Source: Octopus vulgaris (Eukaryota). From it: a DNA stretch of 64,000 nucleotides. The stretch covers positions 111,786,001 through 111,850,000 of the forward strand of contig OX597817.1 of assembly GCA_951406725.2 (NCBI GenBank), in the 5' to 3' direction. The notes beneath the pieces are model-generated. The model was not told the origin of the DNA and ran no database searches. It was given only the letters and a program-made list of their open reading frames with translations. Positions 4,941 through 47,565 of the stretch are shown piece after piece. The position numbers and the translations under genes are program-made. Within the stretch, counting starts at the first letter, position 1. Each line of letters opens with the position of its first letter.

Positions 4941-7648
4941 TATCTGAACCTTGTAGAGTGTTTAAATGATCTGAATTATTTGGGGGAAAAACTTTCCTTT
5001 CTTGACTATATAAGGTTTCCAGGTAGAATAATTACAGATTATTTGTTCTTTCACGAAGAAAAGTGCTATTTTTAGTCTGTAATATTCATTAGTAAGAAAA
5101 ATAGAGTTGTGGTGTGATTACTAGAGATGTCTCTTGAGATCATATAATAGGCAACAGTTAGGAATGTCTGATTTGCAAATTTAATGGGAGATTGTGTGTA
5201 TGTTTTGTCTTTCTCTCTCTCTAATGAGAGTTTAGGGCAAAATATGGTGTGCTTTCTTTAACCTAGTAATTCAGAAACATTGAAATAATAAAGGAAAATG
5301 TAATGGAAGTGACTGTGTCATATGGTTAGATGAGTTTGAAAGAAAGCTTTGTCAATGCATGATGCACTAGAAAGGATTATAAACAATGCTTCAGTTTTGA
5401 ATGCAGTCAGTATGCAGATTGCTTTGCCAGTAGATTGATCTGCTGTTAGACCTTGTGAAAGCCATTGCTCAGGTGGAAAATGATAACTTTGCCTTCATCA
5501 GAATTTAACAGAAGAGAATTTTTGTTAGTGATTTTGTAATGCAGCTTGGTTGTCACTAGGATAATTAATGTCTTCGTGAACATAAAAATGTTGGAATGAA
5601 CATCGTAGATCAGTAGTTAATTGGAGAATTAGTGTGTTTTCGGGTGCTGTGCTGAAACTTCATTTTTCAGGTAGGCTAGTGCATTGAGTCCTTACCCTAC
5701 TTTTCCTCCAGCTGTCACAATATAGATATTCTACTGGGTTGAGGCTGAGAAGATGTCTATGTCTACTCACAACTACACTGGCGTCTTAAACAATTAGCAA
5801 AAGTACTGATTTTGTATAAAGGTCCTCCTGAAGATGGTGGTTGTAGAGTTTTAGTAAGGTTTATGTTGTTGAGATATTGACTCTATTTTAATTCACTTGG
5901 CAGCTATGAGAAAAACAAATGGAATGCAAAATTGGAACATGCTGTATTCACTGAAGAAACAAGTTATTGAGTAATTTTGCATGTAGGAGAAGTGTTCTGA
6001 CGAATTTTAAAATTTGAAAGCATTTAAATTTTACTGTTTTCAGTCATAATTTGCTGGTATTAATATCAAAAAAATAGACAGGGGAATTGCAGAAGAGTCA
6101 ACTTTGTCTTTTTTTTACATGGCACAAGCACAGTTGAGGTCTGTTTAGGCAAGGTTTTTACAGCTGCATACCTTTCCAAATGCCAGCCGCTTTACAGTGT
6201 AGACTGGGTGCTTTTAAGTGGCACCTGCACTGACAGGATCACCAAGTACAGGCATACCTCACCCTACGATGTCAACTCGTTCCAGGAGACATGAATTAAC
6301 TTGTTGCTAGGCTAAACCGATAATAGCCATTCCCAGTTCTGTAGTTCATTTATGAATGCATTTTCAATAATACATGGTTAATAAAAAACTATTTTAAGCA
6401 TACAAACAAATAATTTTTATTTTTTAATACAGTAAAAAAAAAAGTAATCTAAATTTACAAATAGAATTTGGCTGTGTTTACCATATATTGCAGATGCTTT
6501 ATTTATGAATGTAGTTTGTAAAACAAAAACCTTTTTTAAGCTTAAAAAACAAATTCAGTAATTATTATTATTTTGCAATAGTAAAAAAAACCTAAATTAA
6601 TTTAAATTTACCAATATATACATACAATTTCATGATTTCCTTCACTAAGCTACACTTCTTTATGGTGTGTATCTTAACATTTACTATACGTATTTTAATA
6701 TGATTTTACATGCTTTTATTCTTATTTATTGTACAGTAACATGATTTTATGCACTAGTGATTTTACAATTCCAATATTTGTGGCGGACAGATGTAAAGTC
6801 GAGTAAAATAACTTAACTTGATTTTTATTTTTCAATATATTATTTTTGAAACCGATGTATTATTGAGAACAACTTAAGTCAAGGTATTCTTTTCTTTTAT
6901 TCTGTATGCCTGTACTTTCAAGACTAAAAAAAAATACTCTTTTGAGAGGGGAAGGGGCATTTAGTTTTTAAAATTGTTAAAATTTATTTGAGTTGCTGTA
7001 AGGATGGGATTATAGGCTGCTTCCTGAAATTAGTGGACATACTGTAGATGTGAGTGTGTAATTCTGTAAGCAGAATTTTCATAATGATAGGATATCCTGA
7101 TATTCCACTTTAAGGTCCTTCAACATTTCTATAAAATCTGTTATTCAATGTGCCTTTATATGTTAGGAAGTTAATACAGTTTGTTACAATTTTAATCACA
7201 TATTTCATTCTTAGAGAATGTGCATATTTGCATCCTACAGTCTTGCTAATTTCAGCTTTTTATCTACATGAAAAGAGGATACAAAATTTCTTAAAATATT
7301 TTAAGATGAATAGTAGAGATTACCTCTACCATTTAATCGCTACTTTGTTTTACAAGAAAGACCATCCATAGTAATTTTGATTCAGTCCCTCAGCATCACA
7401 CTTAAACAGGTGTCCTCAACTATTGCCTTTAAGCCAACTAATACCATGTGAGCAAAATAGGTAGGCAGAAACTGCATGGAAGCCTATCATTCATTCATGT
7501 ATGTATGCATATATAATACATTTGTGTGCATGTGTAAAAGTTGCTATTTTCACCTTCTGCACAAGACTGAGCAAAAAGTGTTGTATTTACATTTCCTCCT
7601 GTAGTTCTGTGCTCTAGAAAAGTGGAATTAAAATCTCCCCTACATATA

Positions 7649-23134: not shown

Positions 23135-23433
23135 TTAAAGATGTGTTGAGAATTTTTTTTGTTTTTGTTTTTTTCAAAGTTCCTCAGCAGATTTTTGCAT
23201 AATATGTCAGAACTAGCTCATTTTATGAGGTACCTTGTTCAGGTTCTGTGGTAGAGATCAAGACTGGTCTTGTAACCTAACATAAATTTGAACATTTTTT
23301 AGGTCCTTGAGTACCAGGGTATTTGCTCCTTCTTTTCTTCCCTTTGATGTTAGTTTATGTATGTATGTGTACATGTTTAATACACATAAATATAAACATA
23401 ATATACATTAATAGCATTATTTTCTGTTTACAG

Positions 23434-24339
23434 AGAAAAAAAGATTTAGAAATGTTACTCAAGTCGCAACGGACATATATAAATGGTACTAACTTAAAAG
23501 ACTCAAAATATTACTTGGCATTAACGACTGGTGATTTTAACCCTAGAGAACTGAGACCTTGTACTTCCAAAAATTATCATGTTGGTGGAGTGACTCCTGT
23601 TCTATATCCGGGTAATAACTGCAACTGTAAACATACCAAGCTAACAGAAGAGAAAGTAGAACAGAAGAATCTTAATAAACTCGAATTTAAATCTCTGCCC
23701 CAAGCTTTAAACTTTTCTAGAGATGCTAAAACAAAATACTTAAATAAACCATCTATACTGGAGAGAATTGAAAAAAATGAACTTAATTTGAAAAAGAAAC
23801 TTAGAACAGATTTCAGAATTTGTTACTGTAAAAGTGTTTTGCCAAAATTCGTTATAGATAAAGCAAAGACACAAAAAAGAGAAAATACTTACCTTCTTCC
23901 AGATTTGAAAAGAGACTTAGAAATGAAAGACATTAAGAAAGCAATCTTCAATAAACCTTCAAACAAATTGACTGCTCAGTTTTATAATGATAGTGAGATA
24001 CGATTAGTAGCAAATAACTTTTATAAGTGGATGGAATCCCTTGGTGAAGGTGAACCATATATAACAGTCAGTTCATTATATAGCCTTTTGTTGAACAGTT
24101 TTGAGATAAAACCCTCATTGGCTATAAATCTACAAATAATTGATGAAAAGGAACTGGGCGTTGGCCAACGTAGATATTCTACTGGATTAGAGACTTTTAC
24201 CTTTGGCAATGAAAATCCTTCCTACCTCGAATATTTTAAAAATAATATAAGTAAGAAAGAGTTGTTAAGATTTGAGAAACTATTCTCCGATGATGATAAT
24301 TATGATGATGATAATTTTAACAAAAATGTTAATAAATAA
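23434..24339 (+). CDS. Large terminal coding exon of a diverged FAM47-like protein
   Basis: 301 open codons after acceptor tttctgtttacag| in very AT-rich DNA; first Met at 23452. FYKWMESLGEGEPYITVSSLYSLLLNSFEIKPSL resembles the recalled FAM47 motif FCxWVxSLG..NI.EST.xSLFxSGYETKP. Coding status is well supported; the family call is tentative. Confidence 0.6.
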   Translation, partial: RKKDLEMLLKSQRTYINGTNLKDSKYYLALTTGDFNPRELRPCTSKNYHVGGVTPVLYPGNNCNCKHTKLTEEKVEQKNLNKLEFKSLPQALNFSRDAKTKYLNKPSILERIEKNELNLKKKLRTDFRICYCKSVLPKFVIDKAKTQKRENTYLLPDLKRDLEMKDIKKAIFNKPSNKLTAQFYNDSEIRLVANNFYKWMESLGEGEPYITVSSLYSLLLNSFEIKPSLAINLQIIDEKELGVGQRRYSTGLETFTFGNENPSYLEYFKNNISKKELLRFEKLFSDDDNYDDDNFNKNVNK

Positions 24340-28942: not shown

Positions 28943-31900
28943 GATTTTTTTTATTGGCCATGCAGGGCTGAACACAGAAGGGACAAAATACAATGTAGAG
29001 CTTTTCTTTTTGGGAAGAAGAGAAGGAAAAAACAGTGAGTCAAATTCCAATCAAAAGGGATCGGGAAAAAAAAAGTGGGGACGATCAATAGGGATCGTGT
29101 ATCACAGAAATGTCAATGTAAAAAGGGAAAACAGATTAGGTTTCTCCATGGATAGAAAAGCCTATGGAAAAGACCACGGGAACCTTGGGCAATAGTGTCA
29201 TGCCAAAAGAAAACACATTACAGTAAGTGGCTCCCTTTTTTCCTTTGTTTTTTTTGCTTCATAGGATTATGCTCAAGCTGGCTCCGTCATTCACACGTAC
29301 CATCCTTGCTACATTCACCCATCTTTTTTTGAAACATTCACTAGACAAAACTTCCCTCTCTACTCTCACCTTCCTCTTCAAGTGATACTTGAAGAAGTTG
29401 ATGAGAGATTCACCAGAGAGGAAAGTCTTTGTCTCTAGACCTTTCAGACGTGTCCACCATACACATTCTTTTACCATAGCCACAAGTACAATGAAAACAG
29501 CTCTTCCTTCTCGTTTCAAGGAAGGACACGTGACAATATTCACGATAGACTCGGTTGATAAACCGACTCGTCCCACACGTGATAGCAATCGTTTGACATA
29601 GGCCCACAGGTCGGAAATGGTTGGACACTGTACGAGTGCGTGCAGGATTGTTTCGTCACTCTGACTGCATCTCGGACAGGTTGGCCCCATGTTTCTCAAG
29701 CCATGCCTGTAGAGCTTATCCCGAACAGGTAGCACTTCTCAATAGTACTACCAGGCCAGGGGGCCTCTGGAAGTTGACCATAGGTCCTGGCCTGAAAGTC
29801 GTCTTGAACAAGCGGGTCAGGTATTCCTCGTCAATGACCAGCTTCACCCCGAGATCGTTGTTGTATTTTCCCTCCACTAATCCCCTACAGAATGCTTTGG
29901 TTGTGTTGAAGTCACTTAAGGTCAACCCAGAATGGCAGAGTTGCTTGAGAGCAACACAACACTCACGGGGCAATTTGCCCTTCCTCCGCCTTTTTTTGAT
30001 CCACAACTGCAGTTCAGTCATGGAGACGAGCTGCAGGAAAGTGCACCTCACAAACAGTGACCACACCCATTCACTGTCGCCTACATAGAGCCAGAGACGT
30101 TGCAGTATCAGCGTGTGTCTGCGCATCATCAACCACGACATGCCCAGCCCTCCTTTTAATGGGTGTTAGCAGCAAATAGATCACCTGACCATCAGAACGC
30201 ATCCTTTCCACAAGAAGCAGAAGAGAATGCATTCTAGTTTGGTGATGGTAGGGTCAGGACATGGCATGATGGTCAGGTGGTAGTAGATGACGGACGCAAT
30301 GTACGTGCTCGCCACCTCTGCCCGACCTTTTAGGGACAGCTTCCTCTCAGCCCATTGCCGGGCAAGAGTGACCACCCTACTCATTATCTCATCCCAGTTC
30401 TTCTCCATTTGGAGGTCTGGACCAAACCAGACCCCGAACAATTTGACAGGACCGTCAGTCCAGCGTCCCATGACGGAAGTGCTGGTGGATGGCATGGGCT
30501 TGCTTCTCCAGGTACCAAGCTACAAGCCCACTGACTTTTCCTGGTTGATTTTTGCTCGTTACCACTTCGTAGTCTTTCACCGACCAGCTCGATGTGCTTC
30601 TGGCTAGACACTATGACGGTGACGTTGTCTGCGTATATAGACACGCTCATCCTGCATCCCAATTCTTACGGGATGCTCCTCAGTCGCCAGCTTTCACAGT
30701 AGTGGCTTGAGAGTCATGTATAAAAGCGATGAGAGGGGGCATCCCTGATGGACTGAACATGCAATGTCGAAAGGTCTCGATAGATGTCTATTTATGTGAA
30801 ATACTGAATGGATGCCTCTGTACAAAGCAGCTATCTAGCTGCAGAAGATGGGACCGAAACCAGCCGCTATGAGGACAGCCTCCAAGTATCAATGGTCTAC
30901 CCTATCGAAAGCTTTGGATTGATCCAAATTGATCAGGGCCCCACCCATGCCAGGTTCCTTAACTACCCTGTCTATGATGTAGCACATCAGATGAGAGGTT
31001 GTCATGGATGCTCCGGCCCGGCATGGCACATGTTTGCACCTTGTCAACCAGTTTCTCTCAATGACAAGCGCCATCCTCTTGGCTAACACCTTGGCCAAAA
31101 TTTTCAAGTTTGCACTGAGCAGAGTGATGGGCCTAAAGTTATCTATTACGTCCCCCTCATCTAGATCTTTCTTCAGCAGTGTTACAGCTCCTCGGCTCAC
31201 AAAACCGGGGATGCTCCTGTTTTGCTGCCAAGACGTCTCCAAACAAGAATGGCATACAACTGTAAAGCTCGTAGGGTAGACTATCCAAACTCAGTGATTT
31301 GTCCCTTGAGCATTCTGCCGCCATGATGGCAGCAACACCTTGCCTCTCTTGTCGAGAGTTGTGGCAGGCTGTGTAGGTAGGCAATGAAATCCACCTTGCG
31401 TTCTCACCTGCCACTCGTCCCGAACATTCGAGCAAAATGCTGTTGAAAGGCCTCACACATTTTACTTGGCTCGAGTAATTCACGCCCCTGTTCATCTACC
31501 AGAGACTGAATGGTGGCTTTGTTGCCCTGTTGCACCTCCGCCACCCAGGCCTCTCATGTGGGTCCAACACTTTCGTTCCTTAGGGCACACATCCTAGCTC
31601 TGACAACACACCCTTCATGTTTGGCATTGAAGTGTTGGTCTAGGGCCAACCTCGCCGCCAAAACATCAGATATAATGCCGCTTCTAATTACCTCTTCTGG
31701 CTTCTTACCTAGGTCACCCTCTACTCTGTTTCTATCTATGGCTGGTGCTTTGCTATATTTAATTTCTTCTGCTTCTATTGCTCTCTTGAGGGCAAACCAC
31801 CATTTGTTGTTGATGATGGTTCCCGTGAAAGCCCTCTTTACTAGCATGCTAATCCGGTCTCTGAAAACCTGTCTCGATGGGAAAGATGCGTTTAGTTTCC

Positions 31901-33575
31901 AGTACCCGGGACCCTGCCTATGTGTCTTACCTAAGTCTAGCGTACACGTTACAAGTTTGTGATCTGTGTAGCTGACTATGTGGGATTGTGGATACCCTAT
32001 GCTATCTCTATCTACTGTCCTGCACAGTATCCTATCTAGATATGATCTCGACGACCCGATGTGGTTGCTCCATGTCCACGTTGGCGCATTCGGGTGATCG
32101 AGTTGGTACCTGTCAGACAGTGGAAAGTGTCTGGGCAGGTCTCCGAGGCATTTGCATCCCCATCTATTCCTATCTCTGCCCACATAGTCTACATGTGTGG
32201 CCAAGGTAGCATTCTAATCCCCCACTAAAAGTAAAGGATGAGATGTTCCTAGGAATACTTCTAGACATCGAAAGAAATCCGGCTGACCTGTTAAAGGCAG
32301 TGCATAGACTGATACAATTTGAAAAGCGCACCCATTGCTGCTATCGACATCTAGAACGATCAGTCTACCCTCCGGGTCTACGAATATTGTCTTTACTTCA
32401 AGATCCAGACTCTTGCGAAAAAGTACCATGGACTTTAGGGCCCGTGGATTATGGAGTCTGGTCTCACTTATAGCTATGATTTTTAACTAGTGTGTCTGTA
32501 TGTCATTTAAGAGGTACCCTTGTTTCCAAGCCACACAACAAATCTTGATCATAATCCTAGTGAATTAAAACACATACGAAAGGAATAGAGGGTTACTGCT
32601 CAAAAGTTTTTGCTTTCTCTTCCCATGGTTTGTCGTCAAGGAGATCCCAATACAGTTTCTTCATGAGGTATTTTTGGCATTTACCAACCGCACTGGGGAA
32701 AATGCCTTTTAGTGTGTGGTGTAGACTTCTTGAGATGTGTAGTATTTGGATGTGCTCCGGTGGTGTTGTGTATGGGTGGTTGTTTGTTTTTGTTATCTTT
32801 TGTTAGGTTTGTTTTTGATTTGATGTATTCCATCAAATCTATGTTTTTAGTGTCTATAGCTGTGAACATGTTTGCTGTATATATTGTTGTGGTGTTGGTG
32901 TTGCTGTTGTTTGTGGTAGATTTCAAAATGTCTTGAGGAAATGTATATCCCCCTGCTTTGTTTGCATTTGCATTTGGTTTGGTTGTTTTTTTGCTCCTTT
33001 TCTGGCTATTTGCCATTCCTCACTGGTTTCATCTTCCGACGAAATTTCTGAGGAATCGGATGGTGGTAGGGGCATTTTGTAGGCTTCTATGATTGTTTGT
33101 GTAAGTGGTTGTGTTGCTGTTTTCATTGATGTTGGTTGTTGGCTGTTTGTTTGTGCTGTATGTGATATAGGGGAAGGGGTATAAGTTTTTGTGTTTTCTT
33201 TTGTTATTTTTTATTTCTTTAGTTGTTGTTGTTGGTGTTTTTCCAGGTGCTGGTGTATGTTCATTTGTTGGCGTTGGCATATTTGGTTTGTATATTTCTT
33301 TTGTCGTACTCCCTTTGCTTGTCTTCTGTGTTGGTGATAGTGTGGGTAGCAAGGGTTCCTTTATCCTTGTTGTGGTTGATGATCTTTTTCTTGCTGTTTT
33401 TGTTGTTCCATTGCTGTTGGGTACTTAGTTTTGACGTGTTCTTCGCTTCCACACATGTAACATCGAGGCCTCCTACCTCCCAGCACCATGTATAGGTTAT
33501 GGCCATCAACAACAAAACCAAGGTTGCAAGGCCATCCACCATCACCAATGATTCTGCCATTTTCATTTGACACCG
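28943..33575 (-). mobile_element. Decayed L1/Tx1-clade non-LTR retrotransposon (ORF1 zinc knuckle; ORF2 APE-RT-zf)
   Basis: ORF1 knuckle RCYMCGSEEH. APE motifs GRLIVLDV..VSVYA..LVGD, TWTW, SYLDRI, TDHKLV, GPGYWKLN. RT motifs NFRPITLL, LDQSKAFDRVDH, YADN. C-terminal CPRC..ETILHALVQC. 3' AATAAAAAAAA tail at ~28943-28954. Many frameshifts and stops. Confidence 0.93.
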
Positions 33576-34734
33576 CTAGAAAAAAATCTCATTTTCCGTA
33601 GCGGTGTCGTATGAAATTGTCACCCATAATTATAACCCTAGTATCGATCTATTGCATTTCAATTTATTTTAGATTTAGGGGTAGGGTATCTTTTTTCTTC
33701 ACAAATGTAAATAAACCCAATCTGTTTCTTAAAGGAGGGACATATTCATTATGCACAGAATGTTATTTACCTAAATGGACTCCAGTGATTGGTTAAAATT
33801 GCCGAAATATCTTACAACCTAGAGAATTTTCTCAATAAAGCCAAGAGAAAATGATGTTTTATAAACTAATTCTACCAATATACGAAGTTTAAAACTTTTT
33901 AGTTACCTAGAAATTATGTTACAAAGTGCCGTTCAAAAGGAAAAGATCCCAAAAACCCTTTTCTCCCCCCCCCCCCATATATATATATATGATCTGAATG
34001 ATATGATATATATGTAAAAAATGTAATATATAGATAAATATCTGTAAATATGAACCATCTGATCTTCTGATTACCTCATTTCTTCTAATATATATATATA
34101 TATATATAAAAAAACACTTTCTTGAAATGTATCCGGTACTTTCGGTACCTATACCGAAGTTACGCCGCATTTAGATATAATTAGTGAAGAAAGTAAAATG
34201 TAACTGCTAGTCTTCGAAAGGTATGAGCAATAGTTTTCAAAAAGCAACGAAGCTTGATTCACGACCAAGCAGGCCGCATTACTAAAACAATTCAAGGTTA
34301 TTTTTCGTAAGGTGTGCCATTGAGAAAGTCCCGCGAGCCGCAGTTTGCCTCCGAACAAACTATGATAAGTCAAATTTATTTACCTTTGTTTTATATGGAG
34401 CGATCTGTTGTTAGCTAAGTAGTTTGAACTTATAGCCTTTCTTACGTTATGTGAAACTAAATCTTATAACTTTTTTAGTTGTAGCTTTCATGTGTTCTCG
34501 TACTGTTAGCGTTAGAGAGCTGAATGCAAAACTAGGCTACCGCAGAAATACTGATGTTAACACACTGGTACGAGCTAGTTTGGCTGTGACATTTAATAGA
34601 TCTTTTATTTGTAGCAGGAAAATAATATAGTAGACGGAAAACGAAAAAAAAACCCCTATGTATTTACAAAATTATGCTTTTATGGTCAGTGATGCAACAT
34701 AAAATACATGGTAAATCCACGTGCTTCTATGTGT

Positions 34735-34812
34735 AACTTCCGTTTTACCCATAGTTCATTTCACAAAAACGGAAGTTGTTCTTTCTCTTGAATCTGTGAT
34801 CGGGATTGAACG
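34735..34812 (+). promoter_or_regulatory. RPS12: RPS12 core promoter and non-coding exon 1 (TCT/5'TOP start, paired ETS sites)
   Basis: Inverted ETS sites aacttccgtttt (34735-34746) and aaaacggaagtt (34766-34777). Pyrimidine tract ttctttctctt (34779-34789). Donor cg|gtatgt at 34812/34813; next acceptor at 34942/34943. Confidence 0.8.
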
Positions 34813-34958
34813 GTATGTTACATTCTTTCAATCTATTAATGTATTTCATTGTTTATTGAGCATCGTCGTAATATTTAATAATTTATATCTAAAGGACATA
34901 ATCTAATACTTATTTTGTAATTTCTTTTCTAATAAATTTCAGCTAGTAACCCGAGAAA

Positions 34959-36105
34959 ATGTCTGATACTGAAAGGTAGGTACACGTTTATTCCTGTTTT
35001 ACCTCCATCTTCCTCATGCTATAAATGTTAATATTTCGTTTATTTGAATTTTGTATGCTTTTATTTGGTTTGAAAATACTTTTAATACTACATTTACTCA
35101 CTTAAAGGCTGACTAAAAGACTATTGATAGCTAAAAGATTAAAATAAAATATGTAATTTTATTACATATTAAAATATGTAATAAAATAATTATTACATAT
35201 TGATGTTTGTCATAACCTATAATTATGAATTATTACTCTTTACAGGGAAGATGCCCCAGCTCCTGCTGGCTCGCTCGATTTATACTCTGCTTTGCAGGAA
35301 ATTTTAAAGACCTCTCTCATTCACGATGGCTTAGAAAGAGGACTCAGCCAGTGTTGTAAAGCACTAGACAAGTATGTGTTGGTTTTCTTCCTAGTTTAAA
35401 TATTTGTGACGACTAAATTATGATTCCATGGTATTTAATTGCGAAAATAATGATATATGCGGCATTCCTTCAATATAACTCGACAAAATCAAAACATTTC
35501 ACTTGGGTTTTATTTCCGTGGGTTGTGTAGAACAGATATAACGAAATTATGCCAGTAATGTCTCATTTTAAATTTGAAGAAAAAAAAAGCCTTGCATATT
35601 TGTTCTTACCCGTTTCATGTGTATGTAAATTCCGCAAATTTCAAGCAGAAAACAATCGAACTGTCATTTGCTTCCACGGAAATGCCCGAAGTGAAATGTT
35701 TTGATTTTGTCGAGTTATATCGAAAGAATGCTAAGATTATTTTCTTCACTTTCTATTGATAGGTCGATGTGTGTGAGTGCTTCGCGTATGCTATTTAAGT
35801 GTTACGCTATAGTTTCTATGTCTCTAAACTATTTTTGTTTCCTCCCATCTAGACGAAAAGCCCATTTGTGTATCTTGGCAAACAGTGTAGATGAACCCAG
35901 CTATACTAAACTAGTTGAAGCTCTCTGCACTGAACACGGTATCAACCTCCTCAAAGTAAGAGCAATTATTTATTTACTTGGGTTTTAAAATTGATTTTTA
36001 AAATGCTTCTGCTGAATTTTTTTTCTAATTACTCGTGTCAGCTTTTGAAAGTAAAACCTTATGGATTTGTATCAGGTTATATTTTACTTTGGTGTGTATG
36101 CATGG

Positions 36106-36164
<59 letters not shown>

Positions 36165-39100
36165 GAGTCTCTCATGGTCAACCAACACGTTGCAATTTAA
36201 CTCCTTTTTGGAAAATTCTCCCAGTTAACCAGTTTAAATATGAAAATTTAATTTACCTATTTCTCTAATTGACTATGGAAACGGCTGTAGGGATAAGAAT
36301 TTCATATTATATTGATTTAACTATCTTTGAATAACCTGATGTCTATATATCAATTTTTCCATTTTCTTTTTCTCAATCATAAATCATTTAAACACCCATA
36401 TCCATCATTGCAAAATTAACGTATTTAGCTTTTCACGGAACACTTGTAAAAACCGGAAAGCTACGATGCAAACATCCCTTAAAGGATTATAGGCCCTTTG
36501 TATAGTTATATATAGCTGATATTTGCTTTTAACTTGTGATTCCATGTGTTACACAATTGGCTTGTAGCATTTAATACCCCTACATTAGCTGATATTAGTA
36601 CTGCAATTACTTGTCCAGTCATAACTTCTAATTGTTAAATTGCCTGTATAAAAACTCACGTTTTTTGTATTTTAAAGAGATGTCTACTATCGTCATCGTT
36701 ATACTTCCGCTTATCATGTTGGCATGTTATAGTATATCACCCTCGTAATTAGCACACGTCTGTCATTGATAAATCTTACTCTAATCCGACGGTGAAGAAA
36801 TACTTGATCAAAAATTGATATTGTCATGCATGTTAATCAAGGAGTAATTAGCTGCAACAAATGGATGTAAATTTATTCCAAATAACTTATATGTTTCTTA
36901 CTATTTGTCTCATGTAGTAGTCAAGTTAACTCCCTTACTTAAACCGACTGCCTTCAATTAATAACTGGTATGCGATTTTATAATTTTTATAGATGCTTAT
37001 TCAGCAAATATGAATAGTATTCTACAATGCAGCACATCTTGTGAAAGGTCATACCTCTGTATAGGTAATGTTCCTTCCAAGGTGAAAGAATTGAGTATGA
37101 TAATAAATGCTCCCTCTTTCTCAACCTCAAGTAAATTGTCATGGCTTTGCACTGAGCAAACATTTTCTACTATATTAGCCTCGTGAAGATGAAAAAGTAC
37201 TGTTGTTACTGATTATTAGACCAAGCTAGTTGGATATAGCTTCTGATATTGTTTCGCTTTCAGCTTGCACATGTTCATATTTCTGCAATAATCTGTCTAG
37301 ATGTATACGCCTGGAAGCCCGTTGTGTCTGTAGGTGCTCTTGTCTAGTAGAAGTCATGGTTATAAATGAGCAATATTACACAAGACAAGGTTTTTCCATC
37401 TGGCTATGGGGAATGTAACCTTACCTGGAAGCCAGTGTGGAGTTGCAAATAGGAAGAGCATTCAGTTTTAGAAAATACTTCAAATATTCAATCTAACCCA
37501 TGCAGGCATCGTAAGATGGACGTTTAATAACGATAGGCTACTGATTGGGGGGGGGTGTCTTTTATATATGAACAGTTTTTATTTTTACTAGTTATTGAAT
37601 TTTATGTAATGTTTGTTTTACTCAAATTATGGCTTTATTCAAGTGATTGATACTGGTTTCTTTTGCTTTGAATATTCCCATTATTAGTGATAACTTGGAT
37701 TTTTTTTCTTTCCTTAACTATTACTGTAGTGTTGGGTGTGATGATGATGAATGCTCCCTCTACTGATTATAAAATGAGGATTGCAGTGTCTGACCCAATT
37801 GTTGTTGAGAATGGTACAAAATACAAAATGCTTGGAAGTTTGCTTAGCTTCAGGCCAGGCATGATTGACTTATAATCAAAGATGGGTACTACTATAGCGT
37901 GTGATCTGCAGTAGTATCAGTGAAATGGGTTAGGGTTAGTCTGTATGCTAAAGTATAAATGGCCAAGTAGACTGTGGTACCCAAGATGTTTAAACTGTAA
38001 CTCTGGAACATTATTAGAATTAAGAATTGAATTTTATAGTCAAAGGTATTTGCATGGTCTCTCTCTCACTATCAAGTACTTTCTACAATGGCCCCCAGAC
38101 TTGATGATTTTGGGGATGATACTTTGAAAGGTGACATGTCATGTGTGTTGGGTTTGTCACTAGCTTCCCATCCTGTGTTTGCTTGCACCCCTGTAACTTA
38201 GCATTTTTGGCAAAAATAACCAATTCACACTATTCTGTCAAAAGTAATGTTTGTTTATTTACGCTATTGTGGATTACTTGTGCAATATTTTGTAGTTTGA
38301 GATTTTGATGAATTAACTATTAATTTTTAGAATAATATTGTAGGGTTGGCATGAGGTGCCAGGCCTGGCCAAAAGCAGGTAGAATATTTTGGCCAGTTAT
38401 GGCCGGTTTAAATGCAAAAGGGTTAAAGATGATACATTCAGCATTTCCATTTTTGGAGGTTTTGTACCTTGGTTGTTTTGCTTATTTTAAAAAACCTTTT
38501 ATACACTTGTCTAAGTTATGTGTTGGATATGACCGAGGGCTCTCTTTAATGATGTATAATATGGATTGCGACATCTGATCCAGCATAGAAAGTATTTTTA
38601 CCGTGTGGCTGGGGCTGTTTAACCCATGGTCATTCTTCATTAAGTAAATCCATGATCAGAAATCCCCTGTTACTTTTGTTTATGTCTCTTTATTATATAT
38701 GTGACTAATGTATTCTTTATTATAGTGGTAGGATGGGATTTAAAGAAAGTTTTGCTATCCTTAGCAGGTCAAGCAACTACTGAACCTCAACCATTGAGTT
38801 TCATGGTATTGTATAGATAGTTGTCTGAGGTACTAGAATCTTCCAATTTGGTGAAGTTTAAGGCCCAGTTGAGCTAAATGTAGAATGACAAAATCACTTA
38901 TCTTGAGGTATCCATTTCATTGCATTTATGTAAAGTTTATCTAAATTTTCTTTGAATCTGTTACAAAAAATATTTGTCCCAACATGCATAGCTGTTTTCA
39001 CCTTTTATTTTTCTGATATGTAACAATATTGTTTTATACTATGTAATATGGTTGGATATGATGAAGCTAAATGCTCCCTCTTCTGAAATGTCTATTGAGG

Positions 39101-39734
39101 ATTGCAATAACTGACCCAACCGTATTTTGTTACCCCCAAGTTTTCAACCATGAAGTGAAGCATTAAAATATATCACAAGGGGAAAAATATTATTTTGCTT
39201 AGTGAAAAAGGTGGGGAGATTCTCTTTTGCAAAAGAGATAATTTCACTGCAACATAGTTTATTCCATTTAGTGAATTTTTCATAAAGACAATGGTGGTTA
39301 CACTAAGTATCTGAATATTGGGACAGACTAGTAGCTACATGTTGGCTCCACTAACCTTTTGTCATTTTCATCACTGGAAACTTTTTACTTAATTCACATG
39401 CTAAGTCAAACCTCTTTGAACAGATTGCAATGGCAATCAGTCAAGGTTTATAGCTGATTTCATAGGTTGGTTTTTTTCTCTCTCTTATGCCCTCTTTCCA
39501 TTACATCCATAACTTAAAACATCTTGTGATACATCTGAAAGATTTTGCTGTTGCATTGGACAATGCTCTCTCTCTCTCCTAATACATAATGAAGATTGCA
39601 ATGATTCACCTATTAAGAATTTACAAAATATGACCTCAATCTAAACAACCTCTCAAATATACATTGATTTAAGTAGTCCTGTGATGGGACACTTCAGTCA
39701 TGATGCCTAAATTTCAAGTGCATGTAGGACTGCT

Positions 39735-39780
<46 letters not shown>

Positions 39781-42700
39781 GATAGATGGGTGAGTGAAAT
39801 TCAGCTGATGTTTTTAGTAAGTTATGCTTTATTTTCGTACACGTGTTGTGTCTGAAGTACTGAACCAGTGACTCTTGGTTAAATACTTTATTCTTGAAAA
39901 TACTATGGCTTATTTTCTGTTATATTGTTTTATACTATGTAATATGGTTGGATATGATGAAACTAAATGCTCCCTCTTCTGAAATATCTATTGAGGATTG
40001 CAATAACTGACCCAACCGTATTTTGTTACCCCCAAGTTTTCAACCATGAAGTGAAGCATTAAAATATATTACAAGGTGAAAAATATTATTTTCCTTAGTG
40101 GAAAAAGTGGGGAGATTCTCTTTTGCAAAAGAGATAATCTCACTGCAACATAGTTTTTTGTCTCAAATATTGCTTTCTTCTTGAACATAGTTTATTCCAT
40201 TTAGTGAATTTTTCTTAAAGACAATGGTAGTTACACTAGGTATCTGAATATTGGGGCAGGCTAAATTTCAAGTGCATGTAGGACTGCTTGTTTTATTTAT
40301 TTATATATATATAGATAGATGGGTGAGATTCAGCTGATGTTTTTAGTAAGTTATGCTTTATTTTCATACATGTGTTGTGTCTGAAGTACCTGAATGATCC
40401 AATTTTGTGATATTAGTGATCATTAGGTCTAACCTAGCTAAAGCATGCCGTCCTTATATTTTACTCCTTATTTCTAAGGAGTAAGTACACTTGTTTGGTA
40501 ATGTTCTGGTTGTAATGTTATTTTAAACAATGGAGTTGTTTGGTTGGGATAGATGCTCCTCCCTTTCCTGAAATACTTTTTGAGGGTTATAGTAACTAGT
40601 CCAATTGAGGCTAAGAAGTGTACAAAATTGGCATTGCCTGTAGAAACAGTAATACTGTTATTTAACCCGTTATTCAGCTTCAGTGAAATGTAATGCTTAT
40701 TCATGATTTTGAGAATATGATATTGTGATTGTTTTTTTTTTAAATGACATTGTAGGGTAGGTGAGAGAAGCACGATCTTGTCAGTTTGAACATAAAGCAG
40801 AATATTTGGGCTGGAAATAACAGGTTTAAATGCTAAAAGATTGAATCTAAATTGACTTCTGTGAAAATAGTTGTTTATTCATTTTTTTTAACTTTGCTAA
40901 TTTTATAGATATTATCACAGTGAAGTTTTGTCTTTCTTTTCAGGTTGAAGACAGCAAGAAGTTAGGCGAATGGGCTGGTCTTCGTCGTATTGATGTTGAA
41001 GGCAAAGCCAGAAAAGTGAATGGATGTGGCTGTGTTGTTGTAAAGGTAATGCAATCTATTCTATGATATAGTCTATTTTTAGAAATTTCTTTTAAATACT
41101 GTTTTATAAGCAGTGGCTTCATAGGTTATGAAGTTTCAAGGATGTGTTGGATAAATAACAAAGTATTTTTATTTGAAACACTGATCTGTTTGCAACCCCA
41201 GCGTCCTGTGGTTGTGAAGTGAACTCCTTGACTTCAAAGCCATGATTTTGTTCATTTTAATTCAGAGAGAGGGAAAATTTGTTTCTCTCTAGAGAATTGA
41301 ATTTTAGTGAAGAATTGCCTTTGATGTCATGATTGAAATAGTTTGCCCAAAAATGATTGAAAGATGATTTTAGAAAGTAAATGAATTTTCTGGAATTCCT
41401 CAGTTATTAGATATTAAGTTGCTTTTATTGTTTTGTATATAGTCTTGATAGGAATATGTAATGTTGATTTCTAAATTTGGCACAAAGCCATCAATTTCGG
41501 GGGAGGTGGTGAGTGAATTACATTGACCCTCAGTACTCAACTGGTATTTATTTTACCAACTCTGAAGAGATGAGGAGCAAAGTTGATCTTAGTGAAATTT
41601 CAACTCAAAGTGGAGATGGATGAAATCATTTTGCCCAGCATGCTAACAATTCTGCCAGCTCGCCACTTTGTTGGTTATGTAATGTTACTAGAAGTGAAGT
41701 ACTTGAAATATTCAGGGATACGACTTTTCTTTGCAGGTTACGTTTGCAATTCTGTCTTAACATTACTCATCCAATTGTTGAGTATTTTAACTCCCTCTGA
41801 CTTATAGGTTCTTGTATTGTGATTTGAACAACAGACCAGTGACTCTTGGTTAAATACTTTATTCTTGAAAATACTATGGCTTATTTTCTGTTGCATTGTT
41901 TTATACTATGTAATATGGTTGGATATGATGAAACTAAATGCTCCCTCTTCTGAAATATCTATTGAGGATTGCAATAACTGACCCAACCGTATTTTGTTAC
42001 CCCCAAGTTTTCAACCATGAAGTGAGGCATTAAAATATGTCACAAGGTGAAAAATATTGTTTTGCTTAGTGGAAAAAATGGAGAGATTCTCTTTTGCAAA
42101 AGAGATCTTACTGCAACATTAAAAAAAAACTGAAGTTACAAGAAGTTATTCACAACTCCCAACATATTAAACTGCCTTGTTCTCACGTTAAATATGACTT
42201 TACTGTCACAAAGAAATTATCAAGCTTAATAACAATCTATTAAGCAACAACTACCCCATATACATACTATCCACTCCAATTATGAAAAAAAAGAGGGGAT
42301 GGAACCAATAAACTCTCCACTGTCTGTCTACCCTATGTGAAAGGCCTCTCTCAAACGATACAAGTATTCAAGAGTAATACAACACTTCGCAAATATCTCC
42401 TTCGAGTAAAACCACCAATAGAAGAGAATATGACCAAAAACTGCGTACTCCATCCCATGCAGCTGTGGTAGGTTACGCAAAGGTGACACATGCCACCCCA
42501 TCAAAATAAGGGTGGACGAACATGGCAAAGCTGTGACATGAGATATTGATAAATCAGATATAGCTGATCATGTATGGAATAATGGAGACCACTGGAAAAT
42601 ACGAAAACTAAACAGAAGCAGCCCATATGCTAGGACACAACAACCTCCTAAGTGCAGATATGAGTAGCATATGGGAACCAGTATTAAGGAAGGATAGGAA

Positions 42701-43273
42701 AATATTAGATTTATAAGCCTTAAAATTCACTCCATAATTGCCCATGAGCATTGTGGTGAACTCGGGCTACTAACCCCAAGATTCCAAGTTTGATTCCTGG
42801 CAGTGATCTGAATAATAACATCGAAAAATACCTTAGGAATGAGAACCCAGATTCGAAATTTCCTCCAAGATACCTGATGAAGGCTGGAGGGTATATAAGC
42901 CGAAACATGTTAACAACAAAGATGAGAGCAAATATCCATCAAATGCAAATAATGTACATTTCCCATCTCTTAAATATAGGACTGAAAGAAGTAAAGTTAT
43001 ATCACAATTGACTTGGATAAATGAAATTATTTGTATGTGTTTAAAAAAATTTAGGACAAAGTATAATTTGCAGCTTGGTGTAAATTTTGTGTGCTATATC
43101 ATCTTATTGCTCAGCAGGTATGACTATGTTGGTCTTTGATGCAACTAGTGTTTTAAGTACCTAACATTTTGTTCTTCAGAGTTAAATTTTTGCTATTTGT
43201 TTTATTTCAGGACTATGGAAAAGAATCACAAGCACTTGATGTTTTGAATGAATATTTCAAGTCCAAGAAATAA
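34959..43273 (+). CDS. RPS12: 40S ribosomal protein S12 (eS12), 136 aa
   Basis: Exons 34959-34975, 35246-35371, 35853-35955, 40944-41045, 43211-43273; all introns GT-AG with consistent phases (411 nt). Peptide [82 protein letters not shown] at 43308-43313. Confidence 0.97.
35462..35731. repeat. ~60-bp inverted repeat (MITE-like) in an RPS12 intron
   Basis: gcattccttcaatataactcgacaaaatcaaaacatttcactt...tttccgtgg versus ccacggaaat...aagtgaaatgttttgattttgtcgagttatatcgaaagaatgc. Confidence 0.85.
37091..37120 (+). pseudogene. Truncated SNORD100-like copy
   Basis: atgataa (mutated box C) followed by the guide aatgctccctct; no 3' half. Confidence 0.5.
37731..37799 (+). ncRNA. SNORD100: Box C/D snoRNA, SNORD100-like (copy 1)
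   Basis: Box C gtgatga 37738-44; guide atgctccctcta; D' ctga 37763-66; C' atgagga 37774-80; D ctga 37790-93; terminal stem ttggg/cccaa. GCTCCCTCTACTGA..ATGAGGA matches recalled vertebrate SNORD100, which is also hosted in RPS12. Confidence 0.88.
38521..38585 (+). ncRNA. Diverged SNORD100-like copy (possible pseudogene)
   Basis: Terminal stem tgttggat/atccagca, guide-like ggctctcttta, ggattgc and box D ctga are retained. Box C has decayed to atgaccg and D' to atga. Confidence 0.6.
39045..39126 (+). ncRNA. SNORD100: Box C/D snoRNA, SNORD100-like (copy 2)
   Basis: C atgatga 39058-64; guide atgctccctctt; D' ctga; C' ttgagga; D ctga 39111-14; long stem aatatggttgg/ccaaccgtatt. Confidence 0.85.
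39551..39612 (+). pseudogene. Decayed SNORD100-like copy
   Basis: aatgctctctctctctcctaa...atgaagattgcaatgattcacc. The guide has turned into (CT)n and all boxes are mutated. Confidence 0.5.
39941..40022 (+). ncRNA. SNORD100: Box C/D snoRNA, SNORD100-like (copy 3)
   Basis: Differs from copy 2 at about two positions; all boxes and the terminal stem are intact. Confidence 0.85.
41912..41993 (+). ncRNA. SNORD100: Box C/D snoRNA, SNORD100-like (copy 4, last intron)
   Basis: Identical by eye to copy 3; lies in intron 41046-43210. Confidence 0.85.
42121..42980 (+). mobile_element. Penelope-like element remnant (GIY-YIG endonuclease plus terminal repeat with hammerhead motif)
   Basis: From 42328, across frameshifts: [74 protein letters not shown]-ggct..agcc-GAAAC at 42874-42906. 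Confidence 0.85.
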
Positions 43274-45539
43274 CTTCTTATAGCATTCTGTGAGCATATG
43301 CTATGTTAATAAAGTGTTTGTAAAACAGACTTTCACTGTATTGTTTCAGTTCGGCTTGGTATTTTAATAAATGTCCTGATAAATACTTAAGGTGACAAAA
43401 ATTCAAATCACCATAAAATACTTGAGATCTGGGCTACATGTTGAATGTGGCAGTATAGCAGCAGGGTCACTAGCTTAATTGCTGGAATAATAGCAGCTGT
43501 GTGTAAGGAGCATAAAATACTAGAATACTATATTTCTGGACTTAGGTGCTTTTGTTTCTATTCAGTGTAGCAGGCTGTATTTAAATTGGCCAGTTTTGTC
43601 TAATATTGCCATCTGTTTAAAGATAAATATCTGATCTTTGATGTCTAGTTCCTGTTTTGAGTTTTCTTCATGCAAATTCCACTTGCTAGATATCTTCCAA
43701 GATTAGGAGACAATGTGATTATTTTAGCCTGATGACATTGCCAGGCCTTGTGATATTGGGTGGATGGGGGATAAATCTGACTGCCATATTGGAAACTGAA
43801 CTATTTGTAAAGTAATTGTAGAATGCTTTCCTTCCAGATAACTAGCGTTAGTTTTGGTGTAGTCCACCTATTGCCTCCATTTGTTGTTAATGACATATGC
43901 TGACTAAATTTGGTTTGACAGTGTTCTCTCAGCATTCTCTTTTAGTCCAATAACTGAACCATACAAGTTTAAAATCCAGCAGTGAATTAGTTTCGAGGCT
44001 GATTGCTTAGTTCCCTTTCCTTTCACTCAAATTTGACATTTATGCCCCATTTCATTGGATTTGTACTGTTGACGTACATAGCAGATGACTTTGAAGGGAT
44101 CTAAAGGATGAAGTGATTAAAGCAAATGTCAATGCTGGATGACATGGAAGAGGTAAGGAACTACTGCACTAATAAAGTACAGACAGACATGATAAAGGTT
44201 GTTATCCACTGGAATTTTTGGAACAACTTATGTCACAAAATTTCTTTCCTCAATTTTTGCAATTTGATAATGTGGAATGGCACTAATTCCCAATTAAGTG
44301 CTTGCATTAAAACTGATTTAGAATTTGATCTTTGTCCCAGATCTTACTTTAAATCTATATTTTCATGGTGTTTATTCCATCCTTTGTGTGTGCTTTTAAC
44401 CTTGTCACTCTGTACTCCCACTTGAATGGGAATAGGATGTCATCTCTGAATTCTTGATAAAGCTATAACAAACACATAGAAAAAAAATATAGCTGATTTT
44501 GTTCAGTTTGGTTGCAACCATTACCCTTGAGTTGCATATGCAACATTTTTTTTGTTTTGCTCAGGTGGAGGGTTAGGATGGTTGATAGTAAAGTAGGTCA
44601 GATTTGACATTTCTAGCAGGTCACCTATGTAGAAGCTGGGACATTGTTGAATGTCAGTTTACTAGCATACCTGTCATCAAAAAAATGGGAGAAACCACTG
44701 GTAAATGTTAAGTATATACACATTCATATGCAATATTGAATAATATACTAATAAAGACAATCTGTTAATACATGCTCACATGGATCAGACAGATTTTGTA
44801 CTGTTGGATGTAATTCCTGTTGCCAACCTGATCCAGTTAAGGTAATATTTCACCATGTTCAGACATGATTACATGTAAGATTGGAAATGATGCTCTGTAT
44901 GGGTAAATCAAACTTCCATCAAGTCTATCGTTGGTGTAAACTGTCTCGTAGTTCCTGACTATGGTTTATATATGCACATGTAACAACTTAAGGGCAACTG
45001 AATAAATTTGTGACATGCAAAGTCCCTTCTCAACCTAAAGTGACATGGTGGTTTGAATGGCGTAGTTGACAGGGCCAGGAGAGCAGAAATGGAACTCCAT
45101 CTGCCAATAGGTACTTTTATTTCTGGTTGAACAAAGGACCAGCGATTCTTCCTTAAATACTTTGTCCTTGAAAATACTGAGACATTTTCGGTTGTATGAG
45201 CATAAGGCCTGACAGTAAAGTCATATTTAACATGTTGGGAGTTGTTAGTAACGTCTTGTAACTTCAATTTTCTGATCCTTGAGGATTGTACAGCCTAAAT
45301 AATGGTATTGTCGAGCGGATATGTACAATTGATATTATATGTTAGCTCTTAAAACTTGTAGCCTAGTAAGTTCTCCTTAGAACAACACATTGCTTAGTCT
45401 GCCTAATATAGATCCAGCTGTCCAAATGGACAGTAGCTTGGTAGATAAAGCAGTTAATAGGAAAATGGAAAACCTGGCCCATCAGGAATCACCACCAAGA
45501 TCCTTAAAATATCTGGCCTAGTCACCTGCATAGTTAATC

Positions 45540-46210
45540 AGGTTGTCCATAAGGGAGTCATACCCAACTGGTGTAGCAGTACCATAATCTACAGCTACAA
45601 AGGTTCAGGCGATGCCTAACACAAATAATTACAGAGGTATCAAACTGCTGGACTGGGTAATGAAAGTTATAGAAAAGGCTATAGTGCAAATAATTGGGAG
45701 AACCTAGATGAGATGTAGTTTGGTTTTGTATCTCGGAGAATGTGCTACTTTCCTTGTAAGGCAACTGCAGAAGTATTTGGTCAAAAATAAACTTGTACTC
45801 CCTTATCTGGTGGTCAATGCAGAAGCTAGGGATAGAAGAGTGGTTAGTGCAAGTTGCCAGTAAGGTAAAGGTTGGCAACAAGTGTAGTTCTCGGGGGCCC
45901 CCTCTTGTTTATCATAGACCTCCAGGCCATAGCAGGAATTCGAGACTGGGAACACCTCTACATTGATAGCTTTATGGCTGAATCACTACCTGACTTAGAT
46001 TTAAGAGGAAAACTGAATGCAAGAGAGAAGACTGCTGGTTTGGTCATGTGATACTTATGGATGAGGACAGCTTTGTAAAGTGCCAATCTTAAATTGTGGA
46101 AGGGGGTAGACTCAGGATGAAGTGGTTAGAAAGGATATTCAGATGCTGGGCCTCCCTGACAAAGTGACTTGGAGAATGAGAGTTGTGGCAATTTGCTGTA
46201 CCTGGGATGT
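45540..46210 (+). mobile_element. RTE-clade LINE fragments, heavily decayed
   Basis: Contains aattacagaggtatcaaactgctgg (NYRGIKLL) and ctggtttggtcatgtg..atggatgaggacagct, homologous to 61729-61941. Confidence 0.65.
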
Positions 46211-46879
46211 GTCAAGCTTAGTCAAATCACTGTCATCCACACATATAGGCTTGTCTTTCACAAGTTTGGTATGTAAAAAGCACTCTGCAGACTGTAAAGG
46301 GTTTGGGATTAGGATGGGCATCCAGCTACAGCAGACAATAGGAGTCTGGACAGCTGTCAAACTGTCCTTCCCATGCCAGCATGAAAAATGGATGTTAAAT
46401 GATGATATAGAGATGCATATATGGTGGGCTTCTTTCAGTTTCCTGGGCTATAGTTGAAAACACTCAAGGTTCCTATACATGTCTATTTTATTGCCTTTTA
46501 TTTGTTTCAATTAGACTGCGACCATGTAATATAGGGCAGGGCTTTTAGTCACATGAATTGACCCCCAGTATTCATTTTTTTCGGCCTGATACATATCTCA
46601 CTACAGTAACATGTAAACAAACAGCAGTGGTGGGGGCAAGGCACACAGCAGGTTTCTTTCAGCTTCAGTCTACCAATTCCACTCACAAGACAGTCAGCCA
46701 GAGCTAGCACGATTGAGCAGCAAACTTCTATATACATATGCACGTGTCATCCTTTACTTGGGGAAAAATGTCAGGAAAGACACATGGAAAAACGGACTAA
46801 AGCAAAAAAGAGGAATATATATAGATGTTATAGGAGTGATATTTTGAAAATGTGTAAGATTAATTTCATATATTTTTAA

Positions 46880-47565
46880 ATGTGTAATGTCAGTGTGTAC
46901 ACAAGTGTAAGCACCCTGAGAGAAATGTTGGACGTAAGAAGCATCAGATATAGTGTGCAAGTGAGACAACTGCATTGGTATGATCATGTACTGTCTGAAG
47001 AAGTGCCACTCCCTAACAGTGGAAGGAACCCATAGAAGAGGAAGACATGGGATGAGTTGGTGAAGCATAACCTTCAAACATTGAGCCTCACAGAGGCAAT
47101 GACAAAAGACCAAAACCACTGGAGATATGCTGTGATTGAGAAGATCCAGCAAGTAAAGTGAGATTACTGCCGTTGCATAACCAGCCCATTTAAAATGTAC
47201 CTCTGAATTGTTGGGCAACACACCATGCTTGAGACCTATTGAGTCAAGTAATATCAAATCATAATGGAAATTGTAGTTGTGGCTGATGTCAGTGTCACCT
47301 GACTGGCCCCTGTGCATGTGTGGGTCAATGCCAGTGCTGCCTGACTGGTGGCACATATGCCAGCCCCCACCTCAAGACTCGCTCCTGTACCGGTGGCACG
47401 TAAAAAGCACCCACTACACTCAAGAGTGGTTGGTGTTAGGAAGGGCATCCAGCTGTAGAAACCTTGCCAGATCAGATTGGAGTCTAGTGCAGCCTTCTGA
47501 CTGGCCAGTCCCCAGTCAAACTGTCCAACACATGCCAGCATGGGAAACAGACATTAAATGATGAT
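46880..47565 (+). mobile_element. RTE-clade LINE 3' end
   Basis: Homologous in reverse to 61100-61945; ends with acattaaatgatgat. Confidence 0.75.

What the first reader, a model, noticed from the sequence alone, without database searches (positions are those of the whole stretch)
37738..37793. snoRNA-host pairing shared with vertebrates, with an apparent compensatory guide change
Seen: the D' guide is ATGCTCCCTCT in all intact copies. Recalled: human SNORD100 sits in an RPS12 intron, has guide GGCUCCCUCU and methylates 18S G436 in GGAGAGGGAGCCUGAG. Many molluscan 18S sequences, as I recall them, read GGAGAGGGAGCAUG. Inference: the host association predates the protostome-deuterostome split, and the guide co-evolved with the rRNA (GCC to GCAU).
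Basis: partly seen in the sequence, partly recalled or inferred. Interest (0 to 1): 0.7.

Follow-up and report, generated by a model that had tools for sequence, protein, structure and literature searches.

The report
Cephalopod RPS12 intron SNORD100-type guide RNA
Two introns of this cephalopod's ribosomal protein gene RPS12 carry four intact copies of a small guide RNA that likely places a methyl mark on the same ribosomal RNA base as human SNORD100, a gene pairing already published for sponges and vertebrates, and its two changed guide letters would fit a one-letter ribosomal RNA change seen in bivalves but unchecked in cephalopods.

Summary
37738-37793 has C, D', C' and D boxes and a terminal stem. 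It lies in intron 4 of a cephalopod RPS12 gene. Four intact copies share the 11-nt guide, and three decayed copies lie nearby. The best Rfam match is SNORD100 (30.2 bits, below the 58-bit cut-off).

The host pairing is already in print and older than claimed: Perina 2012 reports SNORD100 in RPS12 from sponges to vertebrates. I found another non-cephalopod animal case (L063). Drosophila's guides for this site sit in other genes.

The 'compensatory change' is plausible but unproven. The rRNA difference is one base (C to A), not 'GCC to GCAU'. Mussel 18S primers show the A form, which pairs with the guide over 11 bp, against 9 bp for the C form. I could not obtain any cephalopod 18S. The changed positions lie at the duplex's far end, 9 bp suffices in vitro, and sponge guides carry yet another base there.

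Verdict: a new member of a known family, modest interest.

The parts
37738..37793 (+). Intact box C/D snoRNA, SNORD100-type (the finding): C 37738-37744, guide 37751-37761, D' 37763-37766, C' 37775-37781, D 37790-37793; RPS12 intron 4
   Evidence: Rfam RF00609 30.2 bits, E 0.0052 and 0.00069; identical in run X1, covered in all 4 runs
37751..37761 (+). D' guide, positions 12 to 2 upstream of D'. The C at 37758 is position 5 and is predicted to pair with the methylated G. Positions 11 (37752) and 12 (37751) differ from the vertebrate consensus
39058..39114 (+). Intact paralogue, intron 4, within a recently duplicated segment
   Evidence: Rfam SNORD100 E 0.23
39954..40010 (+). Intact paralogue, intron 4, within a recently duplicated segment
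   Evidence: Rfam SNORD100 E 0.035
41925..41981 (+). Intact paralogue, intron 5; 39843-40151 and 41814-42119 are 93.5% identical
   Evidence: spanned by one contig of run X16 (41640-42025) whose 2 differences lie outside the snoRNA
38529..38578 (+). Decayed paralogue: altered C box, non-canonical D' and C', guide with wobble-type changes, terminal stem kept. The window's G at 38538 reads T in 3 of 3 runs covering it
37097..37152 (+). Decayed paralogue: exact guide, altered C box, no D' in register, no terminal stem
40548..40599 (+). Decayed paralogue (ends approximate): no C or D box, 3-nt duplication in the guide
34779..34812 (+). RPS12 exon 1, non-coding, pyrimidine-rich start (5' end inferred)
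   Evidence: sequence and splice donor
34943..34975 (+). RPS12 exon 2, ATG at 34959
35246..35371 (+). RPS12 exon 3
   Evidence: 92% to Acanthosepion RP-S12e
35853..35955 (+). RPS12 exon 4
   Evidence: PF01248 E 1.6e-8; eS12 chains in PDB E 1e-11
40944..41045 (+). RPS12 exon 5
   Evidence: PF01248 E 5.5e-4
43211..43273 (+). RPS12 exon 6, coding part to the stop codon; 136-aa product

Best explanation
The element has all four C/D boxes and a terminal stem, lies in intron 4 of a cephalopod RPS12 gene, and is likely the orthologue of SNORD100, predicted to guide 2'-O-methylation of the 18S rRNA guanosine equivalent to human G436. Inferred mechanism: it is released from the spliced RPS12 intron, binds the fibrillarin C/D proteins, and pairs its D' guide with 18S; the G opposite the fifth guide base upstream of D' is methylated. 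The RPS12 location is likely inherited from early animals, with repeated copying between introns of the same gene. Guide positions 11 and 12 likely track a single C-to-A change in molluscan 18S, restoring the terminal pair and adding one more.
For: Boxes, stem and copy number are far above chance. Between the two diverged intact types the guide is 11 of 11 identical and C' 7 of 7, against 3 of 6, 3 of 9 and 5 of 8 in the spacers. SNORD100 has the lowest E-value of all Rfam matches. Mouse Snord100 is in Rps12 intron 4, with the ATG in exon 2 as here. Perina 2012 reports SNORD100 in RPS12 from basal metazoans to vertebrates, with sponge expression verified. L063 is an independent animal RPS12 gene with a SNORD100 match, E 0.001. 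The site is methylated in fly (Gm393), Arabidopsis (Gm392), Xenopus, mouse and human. Mytilus and dreissenid 18S primers show the A form. The guide pairs positions 2-12 with the A form (-20.7 kcal/mol) but only 2-10 with the C form (-17.7); the L063 guide does the reverse (-18.3 with A, -22.6 with C). The common allele of the decayed 38529 copy also has U at position 11.
Against: No cephalopod 18S sequence was seen, so the match is to bivalves only. The Rfam score (30.2 bits) is far below the 58-bit cut-off, and SNORD11B scores 29.4. In vitro, 9-10 bp duplexes are modified efficiently and longer ones are inhibitory, so the change is not required. Suberites guides have A at position 11 in 6 of 6 copies, although the paper calls the sponge target highly conserved, so this position may drift. 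The occupied intron differs among animals: intron 4 in mouse, the last intron in L063, introns labelled 2 and 3 in Suberites, introns 4 and 5 here. Fly guides for the site are in other genes.
Confidence: 0.72

Rival explanations
1. Same snoRNA and same target, but the changes at guide positions 11-12 are neutral drift at the dispensable far end of the duplex, not compensation. Either cephalopod 18S keeps the C form, or the fit to the A form is coincidental.
For: A 9-bp duplex (positions 2-10) forms with either 18S form and is enough in vitro. Position 11 is G in the Rfam consensus and L063, A in Suberites and U here. All copies here share one ancestor, so they count as one event. Position 13, which does not pair, is also shared between the two intact types.
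Against: Both changed positions are Watson-Crick complementary to the bivalve A form. By my rough estimate a two-base fit would arise by drift about once in ten. L063 and the cephalopod guide show opposite preferences for the two 18S forms.
Confidence: 0.19
2. The snoRNA moved into RPS12 independently in the cephalopod or mollusc lineage, so the shared host is convergence.
For: snoRNAs are mobile, and none keeps its intron position across eukaryotes (PMC3511168). Fly guides for this site are in CG10576 and Uhg5. The occupied intron differs among animals.
Against: The same host gene is used in sponges, vertebrates, L063 and this cephalopod. Intron 4 by count is used in both mouse and this cephalopod. 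Loss in intron-poor lineages is the published and simpler reading.
Confidence: 0.07
3. The motif is a non-functional repeat, carried by segmental duplication among the transposon remains of the intron.
For: Three of the four intact copies lie in 94-97% identical duplicated segments. The intron contains high-copy repeat fragments. Folding z-scores are only -1.6 to -2.0.
Against: The 37738 and 39058 types keep boxes and guide while spacers and flanks diverged. Depth over 37608-37784 is at the background level of the locus, not that of the repeats. It matches a known family in its known host gene.
Confidence: 0.02

Closest known systems
SNORD100 / HBII-429 (Rfam RF00609, clan CL00073), human and mouse
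   Same: Host RPS12, intron 4 by count. Guide core positions 2-10, D', loop length and C' align to the consensus. Predicted target 18S Gm436.
   Different: Guide positions 11-12. The C'-to-D spacer is about 12 nt shorter. Four intact and three decayed copies. Below Rfam's gathering score. No Rfam match to SNORA33 or SNORD101 in 34500-47000 at E up to 10.
Sponge SNORD100 orthologues in RPS12 (Perina et al. 2012, PMC3412847)
   Same: Same host gene, same guide core, duplicated into neighbouring introns.
   Different: Guide position 11 is A and position 12 is G; the body is longer. Expression was verified there and was not tested here.
Arabidopsis snoR30 (RF00046, clan CL00073), 18S Gm390/392
   Same: Same modification site.
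   Different: Plant RNA; its host context was not examined.
Drosophila snoRNA:CD21 and CD53a, 18S Gm393 (PMC11014333)
   Same: Protostome guides for the equivalent, RiboMeth-seq-verified site.
   Different: Hosted by CG10576 and Uhg5, not RpS12. Homology of the RNAs was not tested.

Membership tests
Box C/D methylation-guide snoRNA | Terminal C box and D box closed by a stem | tested here: met
Box C/D methylation-guide snoRNA | Internal D' and C' boxes | tested here: met
Box C/D methylation-guide snoRNA | At least 9-10 nt of complementarity to rRNA upstream of D or D' | tested here: met
   9 bp with a universal 18S primer site and 11 bp with a Mytilus primer site
Box C/D methylation-guide snoRNA | Complementarity to this species' own 18S | not testable with these tools
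   No genome held; no cephalopod 18S found
Box C/D methylation-guide snoRNA | Expressed as a discrete small RNA bound by fibrillarin; target methylated | not testable with these tools
   needs small-RNA sequencing, CLIP or RiboMeth-seq
SNORD100 orthologue (Gm436 guide) | D' guide whose fifth base pairs with the G436-equivalent | tested here: met
   same register as the RF00609 consensus; position 5 pairs with G in both 18S forms
SNORD100 orthologue (Gm436 guide) | Located in an RPS12 intron | tested here: met
SNORD100 orthologue (Gm436 guide) | Intron position strictly homologous to vertebrate intron 4 | tested here: inconclusive
   same number and ATG in exon 2; no vertebrate gene was aligned, so the match of positions and phases is recalled
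Rfam RF00609, operational membership | Score at or above the gathering threshold of 58 bits | tested here: not met
   30.2 bits; L063 scores 32.4. Filed as SNORD100-type by guide and host, not as an RF00609 member
Guide-target compensatory coevolution | Paired changes in guide and rRNA within the same species, repeated in independent lineages | tested here: inconclusive
   fit to bivalve 18S only; one event; Suberites guide differs again and its 18S was not seen

The most novel reading that the evidence does not exclude
This is a protostome record of SNORD100 still in RPS12 intron 4, as in mouse, filling the gap that fly and worm leave in the published sponge-to-vertebrate series. Its guide tracked a mollusc-wide C-to-A change in 18S while a seven-copy birth-and-death array formed in two introns. 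Position 11 could then serve as a pan-animal natural test of whether selection acts on the terminal pair of the 10-bp guide duplex.
Probability: 0.6. Interest if true: 0.32.

Novelty: new member of a known kind. Interest (0 to 1): 0.2.

Why it matters
It adds a cephalopod to a known, very old snoRNA-host pairing that flies have lost. If the species' 18S has the A form, it also gives a clear invertebrate example of a guide adjusting to a one-base rRNA change. Both ideas are established. A specialist would find it a useful annotation that Rfam's cut-off misses, not a surprise.

Tried and rejected
Search for a cephalopod 18S, all without success.
- No genome is held for the window, and Rfam found nothing in the window at gathering score.
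- A pattern joining a published cephalopod 18S primer site to the target gave 1 metagenome match, which is bacterial and not rRNA (L032), and 0 in genome contigs.
- 18S target patterns in viral contigs gave 31 of 31 non-rRNA matches and 0. They gave 0 of 1 and 0 of 401 prokaryote genomes.
- Supplements of four papers held no match; only files held as text were searched.
- Full-text motif searches found bivalve primers, one universal primer and listings that look unrelated.

Survey of other animals. The snoRNA pattern gave 0 in viral contigs and 39 loci in genome contigs, of which 1 of 39 carries RPS12 exons. The other 38 were set aside as chance. No other mollusc or annelid RPS12 intron could be read.

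Expression: no RNA holder listed; this is no evidence either way.

Rejected ideas.
- That the decayed 38529 copy preserves the vertebrate-like guide: 3 of 3 covering runs read the other base.
- A functional D-box guide: the C'-to-D spacer is only 8 nt and is 5 of 8 identical between copy types.
- SNORD11B, snoU18, SNORD36 and archaeal sR matches: generic box similarity with weaker E-values.
- L063 as a sponge: the tree leaves it unplaced.

A stem covariation count was not obtained. Look-ups in earlier scan notes gave nothing on this RNA.

Full report
What is there. The window holds a six-exon RPS12 gene at about 34779-43273, coding 136 residues, with canonical splice sites at the four coding introns. 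Exon 4 matches Pfam Ribosomal_L7Ae and eS12 chains in the PDB. The protein is sister to Acanthosepion pharaonis RPS12 with support 100/100 and 121 of 135 identical residues, in a tree built from 31 of the 120 relatives found plus L063. The organism is therefore a cephalopod. That it is an octopus is my impression from its repeats and was not tested.

The element. 37738-37793 has a C box, an 11-nt guide, D', C' and D boxes and a 7-bp terminal stem. The guide occurs exactly 5 times, and 7 times with up to one mismatch, against 0.76 expected; 0 of 100 shuffles reached 7. Intact copies are at 37738, 39058 and 39954 in intron 4 and 41925 in intron 5. Decayed copies are at 37097, 38529 and about 40548. 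The last three intact copies sit in 94-97% identical duplicated segments. The 37738 type is older: it keeps the guide (11 of 11) and C' (7 of 7) while the spacers match at 3 of 6, 3 of 9 and 5 of 8. That is the pattern expected from selection on boxes and guide.

Independent reads. Contigs of 4 runs under 4 organism labels cover the 37738 copy. Run X1 is identical over 36900-37804. The only listed difference inside the copy is in the D'-C' loop (37772, three runs). Only 40 of 133 difference rows were shown, so guide invariance in the other three runs is not fully shown. One X16 contig spans the intron-5 copy, so that copy is not an assembly artefact.

Family. Rfam finds nothing in the window at gathering scores. 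In E-value mode SNORD100 has the lowest E-value (30.2 bits; E 0.0052 and 0.00069; cut-off 58), with SNORD11B at 29.4 bits. The SNORD100 alignment matches guide positions 1-10, D', loop and C'; the C'-to-D spacer is about 12 nt shorter. I file it as SNORD100-type by guide and host, not as an RF00609 member.

Host pairing. Mouse Snord100 is in Rps12 intron 4 and Snora33 in intron 5, with the ATG in exon 2 (PMC10287158, passages). Perina et al. 2012 (PMC3412847; passages, part 1 of 2 of section 7, and searches of Text S1; Fig. 4 not viewable) found the SNORD100 orthologue in RPS12 of four sponges. My scan of genome contigs gave 39 pattern matches, of which 1 is an animal RPS12 gene (L063) with a SNORD100 match (E 0.001) in its last intron. 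That gene shares window introns 2, 3 and 5 and lacks intron 4; its animal group is unresolved (where my exon boundaries were one base off, so the printed phases are shifted). Against a universal pairing: the Drosophila guides for the equivalent, verified site Gm393 lie in CG10576 and Uhg5 (PMC11014333, passages and rows of Tables S3, S4 and S6). Across eukaryotes no intronic snoRNA keeps its position, though this target site is shared by plants and humans (PMC3511168, passages). Arabidopsis G392 is mapped with SnoR30 (PMC8053127, passages).

The guide change. Counting from D', the Rfam consensus has G at 11 and U at 12; the cephalopod copies have U and A. Published 18S primers for Mytilus galloprovincialis (PMC3625153, passage) and dreissenid mussels (PMC7854713, passages) show A at the base facing position 11. 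A universal primer shows C (PMC9420353, passage). The two forms differ by that one base; the next base, U, is common to both. The cephalopod guide pairs positions 2-12 with the A form (-20.7 kcal/mol) and 2-10 with the C form (-17.7). The L063 guide prefers the C form (-22.6 against -18.3). The decayed 38529 copy seemed to keep the vertebrate-like G, but 3 of 3 runs covering it read T.

Limits on that claim. First, no cephalopod 18S was obtained despite the searches listed under Tried and rejected, and cephalopod 18S is variable in at least the V2 region just upstream (PMC8074623, passages). Second, position 1 does not pair, duplexes of 9-10 bp are modified efficiently and longer ones are inhibitory in vitro (PMC7229835, passages), so the changed positions are at or beyond the edge of the working duplex. 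Third, Suberites guides have A at position 11 in 6 of 6 RPS12 copies (6 of 7 hits of the search term). The paper calls the sponge target highly conserved, and I could not see its sequence. Fourth, all copies here descend from one event. Coevolution of snoRNA guides and targets is an established idea (Kehr et al. 2014, seen only as a reference entry in PMC6984369; content recalled).

Mechanism. Shown: boxes, stem, copies, host gene, and complementarity to bivalve and universal 18S primer sites. From established knowledge of C/D snoRNPs: release from the intron, assembly with Snu13, Nop56, Nop58 and fibrillarin, and methylation opposite the fifth base upstream of D'. Inferred: expression, methylation at the G436-equivalent, inheritance of the host gene, and compensation at positions 11-12.

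What is in print. Among the rows listed by four searches (30 of 40, 30 of 60, 30 of 38, 25 of 148) I saw no title on a molluscan or cephalopod SNORD100. The library lacks most subscription journals, and automated genome annotations were not checked. Figures, supplements not held as text and alignments deposited outside the papers may hold the cephalopod and sponge 18S sequences that would settle the guide question.

Verdict. A real and ordinary intronic C/D snoRNA of a known family in its known host gene. What is new is the cephalopod record, the seven-copy array and a probable one-base guide adjustment. Novelty: new member of a known kind. Interest 0.2.

Noticed in passing
window 39026-39260, 39843-40156, 41814-42119: Recent segmental duplications (94-97% identical) carried the snoRNA with 230-310 bp of flank within intron 4 and into intron 5.
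   Followed up: partly
window 35462-35521 and 35674-35731: Inverted repeat, 88% over 60 bp, in RPS12 intron 3; looks like a MITE.
   Followed up: no
window about 38260-38430, 40720-40830, 41490-41670: Fragments of very high-copy repeats in RPS12 introns 4 and 5; summed contig depth thousands of times the background.
   Followed up: no
window about 29260-32200 (-): Decayed non-LTR retrotransposon upstream of RPS12: RVT_1 E 2.3e-5 and zf-RVT E 1.6e-6.
   Followed up: partly
window 2449-3678 (+): 409-aa open frame with a tandem C2H2 zinc-finger array.
   Followed up: partly
window 23311-24339 (+): 342-aa stop-free frame with no Pfam match.
   Followed up: no
window 17228-17130 (-): One further C box / D box pair with a 5-bp stem; no Rfam match at gathering score, probably chance.
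   Followed up: no
L063 3473-6213: An animal RPS12 gene with an intronic SNORD100-type RNA (5993-6083) inside a bacterial metagenome-assembled genome, apparently host contamination; the gene lacks the intron equivalent to window intron 4.
   Followed up: yes
L032 1930-2050: Chance match to the 18S pattern in a bacterial intergenic stretch; resembles a TPP riboswitch (recalled, not tested).
   Followed up: no
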